64,000 nucleotides of DNA from the human T2T-CHM13v2.0 reference genome, Homo sapiens, in the NCBI RefSeq assembly GCF_009914755.1, contig NC_060939.1; one strand, written 5' to 3'. Made by a program: the position numbers and the translations under genes. Shown one piece after another: positions 49,691 through 58,634 of this stretch; positions within the stretch are counted from its first letter, which is position 1; every line of letters begins with the position of its first letter. The notes under the pieces are model-generated. The model saw only the letters and a list, made by a program, of their open reading frames with translations, was not told the origin of the DNA and made no database searches.

Positions 49691-50728
49691 TGAACCCCGG
49701 AAGAGGAGAGTCCCTCCACTCTTAAGACCTTGGATGAATGCAATTTGCCTGACAATAGGACTGCCTGTCCACAGATGGGTCTGGGAGGAAAGGAAAGATG
49801 CAGAAGTTAAAACATCACAGTGCTCTTCATCACGGCTTCAAGGGGTTAGGGGCTTGCTAGGAAGTGCCAGGTGATAAGTACTGGCCAAAGGGGAGCCAGG
49901 GCCATGAGCCTGGCATATCCCAGGCAATGTCCAAGCTAGGAGCATTGAGGAGTGGAACAGAGGAGATATAGGAGCCCTCCGGGAGAAGCAGGAATTACAA
50001 AGTGCTGCCCAACCAGTCAGACCAGCTGGGCCGGTTCCCCCTGAGTCCTGGCAGCCTTAACGGGCTCTTTAGAATAAAGCCAATGATTGAAAACACTTTG
50101 GCATCCCAGAGCTGTGCCTGGGCTGAGGAAGGAAATGGATACAGGTGGGTGAGGTGTCCATTTGGTAGGAATAACATCACAGGTGGGGTGTACACCCCCT
50201 GTGATATTGGGAGTAATATCATCCTCTCCCAACGTGGATATTGGGAACAATATCACAGGGGCCTGTACACTTCCTCGATATTGGTAGTAATACCATCCTC
50301 TCCCCCTTGCATATAAGAAACAGTATGTCAGGTGGGGTGGACCCCCCCCCGCCCCGCGATATGGGGAGTGATATCACCCCCCTCTCCCTCCCTGGATACT
50401 ATGATCCATGGTGGACACACAGCGTGTTTACGATATTGTGAGTAATATCATCTCCACCTCTGGAAATTGTGAACATTATCACAGACGGGTGTACACCCTC
50501 TCCAACATCACAAGTAATATCATCCTCTCCCCCCTGGGATATTAGAAACAATATCAGAGGAGTGTTTCTATCAGAGGAGTGTCTACCCCCTGGATATTAG
50601 GATCAATATCACAGGGTGGGTGTACACCTACTGCCATATTGAAAGTAATATCATGCTCTCCCTCCCCGGATATTAGGAACTATATCACAGGTGGGTGTAC
50701 ACCCACCATGGTATTAGGAGGAATATCA

Positions 50729-51038
50729 TTATTAATCACTAGTCATTTATTACCAATATTAATTTAAAAGAACATTAACATTAATATTAACTTCTAATAT
50801 TAATATGAACAAATAATTGTTAACATTACTATACTATTAATATTAATATTAATTATTAGCTAATAATGTTATTTTATACATATTTGTGTATATAGAAGAT
50901 CAGTATTATCAACATCAGTCATTATTATTAATAATTAATATTAATAAATTTTGTTATTAATATTACTGGTTAATTATAATTGTTATTGATTTTAATAATT
51001 ATATTAATTATTGATTATTAATAATAATTATTAATATT
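50729..51038. repeat. AT-rich core 1 between inverted satellite arms
   Basis: Strongly AT-rich; many ATTAAT/AATATT palindromes. Confidence 0.9.
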
Positions 51039-55208: not shown

Positions 55209-55844
55209 TTATTAATCACTAATCATTTATTATCAATAGTGATTACTAAGAACATTAACATTAATATTAATTTCTAAGATTAATATGAACAAATAATTGT
55301 TAGCATTATTAGACTACTAATATTAATAATAATTATTAGTAGCTAATAATGTTATTTTATACATATTTGTGTGTATATAAGATCAGTATTATTAACATCA
55401 GTCATTATTAATAATTAATATTAATAAATTTTGTTATTAATATTAATGGTTGATTTTAATCGTCATTATTATCGTTATTGTATATATAAGATCAGTATTA
55501 TTAACATCAGTCATTAATAATTAATATTAATAAATTTTGTTATTAATATAATGGTTAATTTTAATCATCATTATTCTCGTTATTGTATATAGAAGATCAC
55601 TATTATTAACATCAGTCATTATTAATTAATATTAATAAATTTTGTTATTAATATTAATAGTTAATTTTAATCATCATTCTCGTTATTGTATATAGAAGAT
55701 CAGTATTAACATCAGTCATTATTAATAATTAATATTAATAAATTTTGTTATTAATATTAATGGTTAATTTTAATCGTCATTATTATCGTTGTTGATTTTA
55801 TTAATTATATTAATTATCGATTGTTAATAATAATTATTAATATT
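55209..55844. repeat. AT-rich core 2, containing 4 tandem copies of an approximately 105-bp unit
   Basis: GATCA(G/C)TATTA anchors at 55381, 55490, 55595 and 55698. Confidence 0.92.
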
Positions 55845-58634
55845 ATTCCTGATATCCAGGGGGTCGAGGATGACATTGCTTCCTATACCTCAGAACACGT
55901 ACACCCCCATGTGATGTTGTTCCTAATAACCAGGGGGTAGAGGATGACGTTACTCCAAATATCGCCGTGGGTGTACATCCCTTCTGCGATCTTGTTGCTA
56001 ATACCCAGGCGGGGAGAAGACGATATTAATCCCAATATTGCAGAAGGTGTAGACCTCCCCTGATATTCAGGGGAAAGAGCACGATATTGCTCCCAATATC
56101 GCAGTCTGTGTACGCCCACTCTGTGATATTGTTCCCTATATCCGGGGAGGTGGAGAGAATGATACTACTCCCAGTTCTGCAGGCGGCATACTCCTGGCCT
56201 CTGATATTCTATTCTATCTCCAGCGGGGAGGAGAGGATGATACTACTACCAGTATTGAAGGAGGTGTTCACCACCCCTGTGATATTGTTCCTAATATCCA
56301 GTGGGGGAGACGATGATATTACTGGCCAAATCACAGGGGGTTTACACCCCCTCTGTTTTTCTTTTTTTTTTTTAATATCTAGGGGGCAAAGGGTGATATT
56401 ACTCCCAATATCCCCAATATCGCTGTGGGTGTACATCAACCCCGTGGTATTGTTCCGAATATCCAGGGAGGGAGAGGATATTACTGTCAATATCGCAATA
56501 GGTGGACACCCCTTCTTTTATATTGTTCCTCATATACAGCGGGGAGAGCATGATATTAATCCCAATATCGCTAGGGGTGCACACCCCTCTATGGTATTGT
56601 TCCCAATATTTTGCAAGGGATTTATGATATTACTGGCAATATAAGAGGGTGTGTACACCACCCATGTAATATTGGGGTTTTTTTGTCCAGCAATGAAGAA
56701 ACTGATATTACTCCCAAAATGGAACGGGCTGTACAACCCCCATGAGGCATTGTTCCTAACATCCAGGGGGCGAAGGATGATATTACTCCCAATGTTGCAG
56801 CGGGTGAATCATTCCCCTGTGAAATTGTTCCTAATATCTAGGAGGGGTGAGGATGATATTAATTTCAATATCGCAGGGAGTGTACACCGCCCCTATGATA
56901 TTGTTCTCAATATCCGTGGGAGTAGAAGATTATGTTACTCTCAATATCGCAGGTGGTGTGCACCCCACCCGTGATATTCTTTCTAATATCCAGGTGGGGG
57001 GAGGACGATATTACTCAGAATATCGCAAGTGATGCCCACCCCTTCTGTGATATTTTTCCTACTATTTCTGGCGGAAAGGATGATATTACTCCTAGTGTCA
57101 AAGGGAATGTACACGCTTTCTGTGATATTGATCCTAACATTTAGGGTAAAAGAGGATGATATTACACACAATATCGCAGGGGTGTGGTGTACGCTCCGCC
57201 TATAATATTATTTCTAATATGCAGGAAAAGAGAGAATACTATTTCTTCCAGTAGTGCAGGAGGTGTACACACCCTGTGATAATTTTTCTAATATCCAGAG
57301 AAGGAGACGATGACATTACTGGCCATATCGCACAAGGTGTGCACCCTTCTGTGACATTGTTCCTACTATTCAGTGGGAAGGAGGATAATTTTAATCCCAA
57401 TATCGCAGGGGATGTACAGTCCCCCTGTGTATAGTTTCTAATGTACAGGGAAAAGAGAATAATATTACTTCCAATATCGCAAAGCGTTTAAACACTCCTT
57501 GTATATTTTTCCTAATCTGCAGTGGGGTACAGGTTGATATTATTTTCAATGTCGCAGGGGGTGTCCATACCCCCTGTGATATTGTTCCTAATATCCAGCG
57601 GGAAACAGGCTGATATCACTCCCAATATCGCAGTGGCAGTACACCACCCATGTGATATTGTTCCTAATATCCACGCGGGGAGAGGATATTACAACATCAC
57701 AGGGGGTGTACACCCCTTCTGTGATATGCTTCCTGATATCCAAGGGGTGAGTGGATGATATTATTCCCAATAGCGTAGGAAGTGTACACCCATCCTGTGA
57801 TACTGTCTCTAACAACCACATGGGGAGAGGTGATATTATTCCCAATATTGCAGGAGTTGTTCACCCCGCCTATGATATTGTATTTTTTATATACAGTGGG
57901 GGAGAAAATGGCATTACTACCAATATTGAAGGGATGGACACCCCACAAGATATATTGTTCTTAATATCCGGGTTTAAAGAAGATGATATTACTCCCAATA
58001 TAACAGGGGTTGTACACCCACCTGTGATATTATTCGTCAAATCTAGAAAAAGAGAGAATGATATTACTTCCAATAGTACAGGGGATGTACACCCCCCCGT
58101 GATATTTTTTATAATATCTAAAAGAAGAGATGATGATATTACTCCCAATTCCACAAAAGGTGTACAACCCCCCGTGATATTGTTCCTAATAACTAGTGGA
58201 GGACAGCACGATATTACTTCCAATACCACAGTTTCTGTACACACCCCCTGTGATAGTGCTCCTAATTTCTAGGGGTTACACTGTCATATTACTCCCAATA
58301 TAGCAGTGGGTGTACACCCAACCTGTAATAATGCTCTGAATATTCAGGGAAACACAGGATGATATTACTCCTAATATCGCAGGGAGTGTACACCCCTTTT
58401 GTGATATTGTTCTTATAACCTCAGGAAAAGAAAACGATATTGTGTTCAATATCGCAGGCTGTGTACACCCACCCTGTGAAATTGTTCCTAATATACATGA
58501 GGGGAGAGGGTGATATACTCCTTATGTATAGCAAGAGGGTGGACACATAGCAAGAGGATGCGGGGAGTAATATCGCCCCCTTCTCCCCCGCTGGATATTA
58601 TGATCCACATCGCAGGGAGGCGGGCGATGAGAAT

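What the first reader, a model, noticed from the sequence alone, without database searches (positions are those of the whole stretch)
50166..58630. Satellite monomer is a 34-bp palindrome plus nested GATATT/AATATC dyads, resembling a protein-binding or origin array
Seen: the by-eye consensus contains AATATCACAGGGGGTGTACACCCCCTGTGATATT, a perfect 34-bp palindrome centred on TGTACA (near-matches at about 53941 and 54705). It overlaps two GATATT-N6-AATATC dyads, giving four GATATT half-sites per approximately 75 bp. These hexamers and TGTACA appear better preserved than the spacers. Analogy only: baculovirus hr elements and herpesviral origins use spaced palindromes next to AT-rich DNA. Inference: an iterated binding or cruciform array that could drive its own amplification and mobility.
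Basis: partly seen in the sequence, partly recalled or inferred. Interest (0 to 1): 0.7.

Follow-up and report, generated by a model that had tools for sequence, protein, structure and literature searches.

The report
Scattered copy of a primate macrosatellite
This stretch matches the known primate satellite SATR. Its 76-base repeats form a fixed, two-armed module of 7-8 kb that recurs on many human chromosomes and was likely pasted into DNA breaks from a tandem source array; its palindromes are real but imperfect and show little sign of being kept as protein-binding sites.

Summary
The array (about 100 monomers of 76 bp) is real and matches SATR1/SATR2. The GATATT-N6-AATATC dyads are real, but the 'perfect 34-bp palindrome' is not: no copy comes closer than 3 edits, and the consensus is a 36-bp imperfect palindrome. 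Half-sites are better kept than spacers only because they are A/T-rich (A/T columns 0.90 vs 0.89, p=0.58), and the dyads show no excess of compensatory changes. Only TGTACA stands out, weakly.

The notable feature is one level up. The window holds two head-to-tail copies of a module: GC-rich tract, inverted arm of ~35 ordered monomers, AT-rich centre, arm of ~57. All 18 other loci examined have the two-arm layout, with monomers in the same order. Ends cluster in the GC tract (17 of 26), without target duplications or poly(A). Here the block is fused to a 1.45-kb mitochondrial insert at the junction of a local duplication. Best reading: fragments of a macrosatellite captured during break repair, with the palindrome as the point where arms turn. 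An origin or replicon reading is not excluded but has little support.

The parts
50166..50735 (-). Arm A of unit 1: internally deleted, left end in mid-arm
50736..51030 (.). AT-rich centre of unit 1 (83% A+T), homologous across loci, not a single hairpin
51033..53660 (+). Arm B of unit 1: about 35 monomers of 76 bp
53662..53830 (-). Orientation switch inside the palindrome, one GC-rich monomer, and the conserved variant monomers that follow it
53831..55215 (-). Rest of arm A of unit 2; holds the near-palindromes at 53941 and 54705
55216..55844 (.). AT-rich centre of unit 2, enlarged by four copies of a 105-bp repeat (55370-55794)
55845..58546 (+). Arm B of unit 2: about 36 monomers, reaching the last ancestral B monomer
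58557..58626 (-). Second orientation switch and one GC-rich monomer; right end of the satellite
58635..60084 (+). Mitochondrial insert (MTND5P37 to MTND4P37), within about 8 bp of the satellite end; junction not found elsewhere
   Evidence: hub annotation
47287..50162 (+). Left copy of a local direct duplication; lacks about 17 kb present in the right copy and ends 3 bp before the satellite
60085..61681 (+). Start of the right copy (96% identical to 47287-48335), directly after the mitochondrial insert; its second part lies beyond the window, ending at window-equivalent 80343 (97.5%)

Best explanation
The array is a two-unit piece of the SATR higher-order repeat, a 7-8 kb module of ordered 76-bp monomers in two inverted arms around an AT-rich centre, and it was likely shed from a tandem source array and patched into a DNA break together with mitochondrial DNA. 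Shown: fixed monomer order across chromosomes, head-to-tail units, subfamilies, ends clustered in the GC-rich tract, no target duplication or poly(A), and here a satellite-plus-mitochondrial block at the junction of a local duplication. Inferred: the source was a macrosatellite like the SATR arrays of macaque; pieces were released by breakage or recombination in the GC-rich tract (as loose or circular DNA, or copied by template switching) and joined during repair. Inferred: the nested dyads are left over from fold-back duplications that built the monomer, and the 36-bp palindrome gives opposite-facing monomers shared sequence, which is why arms turn there. Host zinc-finger proteins likely bind to silence the repeat, not to drive it.
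For: 19 of 19 loci (window included) have minus arm, AT-rich gap, plus arm. In-register monomers are mostly 81-93% alike between arms at different loci, against 77% among the 90 ancestral monomers. The same in-register deletions recur at different loci. The tree shows subfamilies, and one locus joins two of them. 17 of 26 ends lie in the GC-rich tract, at varying phase (p=1e-11 if the tract is 10% of the unit, 2e-5 if 25%). In 10 loci with both ends known, the longest shared word is 4-6 nt against a control mean of 4.8, with no poly(A). The window block abuts mitochondrial DNA and both copies of a 96-97.5% duplication. Macaque has tandem core units of GC-rich SATR1v, inverted SATR1, an AT-rich repeat and forward SATR1. 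Precedent for the proposed dispersal route: alpha satellite (PMC7719264 passages).
Against: No tandem source array was found in the human genome, and no close donor: the best relatives are 88-91% although the flanking duplication is 96-97.5%. G/C-run columns changed 2.7 times more among ancestral monomers than after dispersal, while other classes give 0.9-1.2; run length explains at most 1.6 times, which leaves room for past selection on an A/T-rich footprint. TGTACA is slower than other non-run columns (p=0.017) and the core shows 11 compensatory pairs against 5.9 in shuffles (p=0.02; relatedness uncorrected). Empty insertion sites could not be seen without other primate genomes. Loci were chosen by similarity to the start of arm B.
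Confidence: 0.58

Rival explanations
1. Copies spread chromosome to chromosome by duplicative transposition (break-induced copying) from existing SATR loci, as for Xiao/DA core duplicons, with no loose DNA and no large source array.
For: SATR marks Xiao/DA ends and 8p23.1 duplication breakpoints. Two locus pairs share flanks (chr4/chr18 94%, chr2/chr9 98%). The window block sits at a duplication junction.
Against: The other loci examined share no unique flank; no donor above 91% for the window; co-capture of mitochondrial DNA points to loose fragments.
Confidence: 0.18
2. The module was an origin-bearing replicon: an initiator protein bound the arrayed dyads on both sides of an AT-rich unwinding element, and the GC-rich tracts were terminal repeats, as in a defective viral amplicon.
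For: The layout resembles baculovirus hr origins (64-bp repeats with 24-bp imperfect palindromes, PMC4535591). Head-to-tail units with ends in one tract. N6 spacing is invariant among exact dyads. TGTACA is slow and G/C runs are unexpectedly fast before dispersal.
Against: Half-sites are no better kept than spacer A/T columns; no compensation in dyads; no exact match in viral contigs, a library thin in vertebrate viruses; no long reading frame (longest 204 codons stop to stop); ends have no fixed base.
Confidence: 0.12
3. A non-autonomous foldback DNA transposon whose long inverted arms carry tandem transposase-binding sites.
For: Inverted arms of tandem subrepeats around an AT-rich middle; dispersed subfamilies.
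Against: No terminal inverted repeats: where the ends resemble each other they are direct (43-78 vs 14-38 inverted, 4 loci), and there are no target duplications or fixed termini. The arms are only 71-79% complementary.
Confidence: 0.06
4. Long SATR transcripts were retrotransposed by L1 or ERV machinery.
For: Some ends abut L1-like or LTR-like sequence (names recognised by eye, recalled). Xiao/DA were proposed as retro-like.
Against: No poly(A) or target duplication in 10 of 10 loci; both ends vary; fold-back arms and 12-kb multimers are poor templates.
Confidence: 0.06

Closest known systems
SATR1/SATR2/SATR1v satellites (macaque T2T preprint 10.1101/2025.08.04.668424; Xiao/DA, PMC2700803)
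   Same: Hits fall near about 17 listed Xiao/DA positions, which are flanked by SATR-HERVE-SATR; the macaque core unit has a GC-rich array, an inverted array, an AT-rich repeat and a forward array.
   Different: Human units have far longer arms (up to 35 and 57 monomers vs 589 and 191 bp), a milder GC tract (61% vs 81%), and are scattered as 1-3 units. Fixed monomer order and end bias were not in the text I read.
Dispersed alpha-satellite repeats (PMC7719264)
   Same: Satellite pieces scattered in euchromatin, proposed to come from arrays via circular DNA.
   Different: Alpha repeats are single-orientation, short, and show 2-10 bp duplications; here the unit is 7-8 kb with inverted arms and preferred ends.
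Baculovirus hr origins (PMC4535591)
   Same: 60-80 bp repeats, each with an imperfect palindrome centred on a six-base palindrome, near AT-rich DNA.
   Different: hr repeats are 3-8 near-identical copies with shown function and a known binder; here about 90 diverged monomers, no homology shown, no function shown.
Foldback transposons; poxvirus concatemer junctions (both recalled)
   Same: Inverted arms of tandem repeats around an AT-rich middle.
   Different: No terminal inverted repeats or target duplications; the AT centre is no more self-complementary than shuffles (117 vs 113 +/- 16).

Membership tests
SATR1/SATR2 | Sequence match to the Dfam/Repbase consensus | not testable with these tools
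SATR1/SATR2 | Homology to the satellite flanking Xiao/DA elements | tested here: met
   Hits lie within about 2 Mb of some 17 positions given in an older assembly; the best hits to arm B (87-91%) are of this set.
SATR1/SATR2 | Core of GC-rich array, inverted array, AT-rich repeat, forward array; SATR1 about 44% GC | tested here: met
   Searches (19 of 19 loci have the two arms and AT gap; arms 44% GC).
Higher-order repeat / macrosatellite | Diverged monomers in fixed order, repeated as a block | tested here: met
   90 positions, copies about 92% to their ancestral monomer, monomers 77% to each other.
Higher-order repeat / macrosatellite | A long tandem array of the block | tested here: inconclusive
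   At most about 3 units per human locus examined; long arrays reported in macaque.
Foldback / cut-and-paste DNA transposon | Terminal inverted repeats and target-site duplication | tested here: not met
L1-mobilised retroelement | Poly(A) tail and target-site duplication | tested here: not met
   0 of 10 loci.
hr/oriP-type origin array | Binding sites kept above background | tested here: not met
   Half-sites. TGTACA is a weak exception.
hr/oriP-type origin array | Replication of a plasmid, dependent on an initiator | not testable with these tools
   Needs an experiment.
Hairpin-telomere junction | AT centre folds back about one axis | tested here: not met
   p=0.35; z>3 in only 3 of 22 centres.

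The most novel reading that the evidence does not exclude
SATR is not a passive satellite but the fossil of a self-replicating extrachromosomal element of simian germ lines: a 7-8 kb non-coding replicon with about 180 dyad sites flanking an AT-rich unwinding centre and GC-rich terminal repeats, which made concatemers, evolved through successive subfamilies, was captured at breaks, and later seeded the Xiao/DA duplicons and macaque subtelomeres.
Probability: 0.12. Interest if true: 0.85.

Novelty: already known. Interest (0 to 1): 0.4.

Why it matters
SATR marks the breakpoints of disease-linked core duplicons such as 8p23.1, and it expanded to 8 Mb in macaque and into hoolock centromeres, yet it is annotated as loose satellite fragments. 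Treating it as one ordered 7-8 kb module with subfamilies and preferred break points makes its copies datable and its spread testable. This locus gives a clean case of satellite, mitochondrial DNA and a local duplication joined in what is likely one repair event.

Tried and rejected
Perfect 34-bp palindrome: rejected. Half-site constraint: rejected after splitting columns by base. Satellite plus mitochondrial insert as a mobile composite: no other hit spans the junction among 58 matches from the 40 candidates scored. Hairpin-telomere centre: rejected. Viral match: none. Coding capacity: none evident. tRNA scan of the mitochondrial insert found nothing (bacterial model, uninformative). A pattern count for genome-wide copy number was too specific and found only the window. 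A purely APOBEC-like explanation for the fast G/C runs: rejected, since 231 of 568 changes are transversions. The CpG control on the second part of the duplication was misaligned (row X2) and was dropped.

Full report
Observation. Tandem Repeats Finder gives 75-76 bp arrays across the interval, broken by two AT-rich stretches. Aligning to that unit gave 103 segments, 93 near full length, which were used for counts. Each monomer has two GATATT-N6-AATATC dyads and a TGTACA-centred palindrome. The dyads are far beyond chance (91 vs 0.11). The 34-bp perfect palindrome is an idealisation: no match at up to 2 edits, four at 3 edits, all 35-36 nt. The arms are unequal (8 and 10 nt gaps in 28 of 40 copies, equal in 0 of 40) and carry a G.T mismatch.

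Conservation. Half-sites average 0.87, TGTACA 0.90 and the rest 0.78, but the gap is compositional: A/T columns are 0.896 vs 0.888 (p=0.58) and non-run G/C columns 0.76 vs 0.78. To separate old from recent change I rebuilt 90 ancestral monomers from 15 loci. Four loci were dropped as flank-sharing or Xiao duplicates, 9 arms were excluded, and copies under 80% identity were left out of the recent counts. On a tree of these monomers, half-site A/T columns change 4.8 times and spacer A/T columns 5.5 times (p=0.55); TGTACA changes 3.0 times (p=0.017, uncorrected) and G/C runs 12.9 times. Compensatory pairs: dyads 1 and 2 against 1.1 and 1.7 in shuffles, outer arms 3 against 3.0, core 11 against 5.9 (p=0.02). 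In the window's own monomers dyad 2 gave 7 against 3.6 (p=0.05) and the other two sets were not significant. Real palindrome segments fold at a mean of -5.8 kcal/mol, 38 of 93 with z<=-2. One result is unexplained: G/C runs changed 2.7 times more before dispersal than after, while other classes give 0.9-1.2.

Architecture. The window is not a simple array. It reads arm A (minus), AT centre, arm B (plus), switch, GC-rich monomer, arm A, AT centre, arm B, switch, one GC-rich monomer. A search of the genome with the start of arm B gave 227 matches from 40 of 434 candidates scored, at about 30 loci. I examined 18 of these; all have minus arm, AT gap (313-768 bp), plus arm. Monomers align in register between chromosomes to a fixed order of about 35 (A) and 57 (B), with internal deletions of whole monomers, some shared by several loci. 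A full unit is 6.8-8.0 kb. The tree of 21 A-arm cores shows subfamilies; the window is closest to Xiao-type copies (88%), and chr9:102.38 joins two subfamilies. In 18 of 21 junctions the switch from plus to minus falls inside the palindrome, which covers 47% of the monomer; several of these descend from one junction.

Insertion footprints. Of 38 locus ends, 26 could be mapped; 17 lie in or just past the short GC-rich tract, at varying phase (assigned by eye). That tract is 61% GC with 1.6 G4-like motifs per kb (3 motifs) against 0.06 in the arms. If the source had much longer GC tracts, as macaque SATR1v does, the bias would be weaker. Ten loci with both ends show no target duplication, poly(A) or terminal inverted repeat. 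In the window the satellite ends at 58626, mitochondrial DNA runs 58635-60084, and the junction is not found elsewhere. The block lies between two direct copies of local DNA: 47287-48335 recurs at 60085-61681 (96%), and 48439-50162 recurs beyond the window (97.5%) with no satellite in the next 0.9 kb. At a recalled rate near 1e-9 per site per year the duplication is roughly 12-20 million years old. The two satellite units are only about 79% alike over their long shared stretches, so they had likely diverged before arriving. That all pieces came in one event is parsimony, not shown.

Mechanism. I favour pieces of a tandem macrosatellite, released at the GC-rich tract and joined in during break repair (0.58). 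Chromosome-to-chromosome copying (0.18) is the closest rival. An origin-bearing replicon (0.12) keeps some support from the layout, the slow TGTACA and the odd run rates. Transposon and retrotransposon readings fail their defining tests.

Literature. Macaque preprint 10.1101/2025.08.04.668424: parts 1-4 of 5 read; it describes the inverted core and hypermethylation; its supplements were not seen and may describe more. PMC2700803: parts 1 and 3 of 4 and passages. Passages only: PMC5088589, PMC3606032, 10.1101/2021.07.12.451456 (41), 10.1101/2024.04.19.590250 (68), PMC13629686 (satellites depleted around NUMTs), PMC4535591, PMC7719264. KZFP atlas: passages and supplement rows; ZNF141 is enriched on SATR1, and SATR1 is the top repeat subfamily for ZNF445 (satellite family FDR 2e-75); the bound motifs were not seen. 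The single-strand DNA study tested SATR1/2 in a figure not held, and the passages seen name other satellites as enriched. Searches for SATR1/SATR2, SATR with palindrome, SATR with primate, and SATR-1 listed no paper that, from its listing or the passages read, describes the monomer dyads, the fixed order or the end bias; Repbase, Dfam and subscription papers were not searchable. Foldback, poxvirus and L1/LTR labels are recalled.

Verdict. A known family.

Noticed in passing
window 47287-50162 and 60085-61681 (continuing to G000:C15:37962343): Local direct duplication of 96-97.5% identity bracketing the satellite and mitochondrial insert; the left copy skips about 17 kb. It lies upstream of BMF.
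   Followed up: partly
window 60832-61466 vs 48026-48116: A 48-bp VNTR has 13 copies in the right duplicate and 2 in the left.
   Followed up: no
L027 (chr18:27.08) and L029 (chr4:22.57): These two loci share one satellite junction and 1.5 kb of flank (94%); at chr18 the satellite sits in L1-like sequence with about 50 bp of unrelated DNA on each side (by eye).
   Followed up: partly
L031 (chr9:102.38): Units of two subfamilies (79% alike) lie side by side, suggesting insertion into an older copy.
   Followed up: partly
all loci: CpG sites diverge only 2-4 times faster than other sites, against about 12 times in the neighbouring unique duplicate (5 of 15 sites, a small sample); may reflect low germline methylation.
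   Followed up: partly
L020, L029, L012 ends: Three of the nine ends outside the GC tract stop at or just after the TGTACA centre.
   Followed up: no
ancestral monomers: Arm A holds an internal duplication offset by 19 monomers, and the end of arm B resembles an inverted copy of part of arm A (up to 96%).
   Followed up: no
window 21986-22159: A 20-bp tandem repeat of about 9 copies inside BMF, near an annotated enhancer.
   Followed up: no
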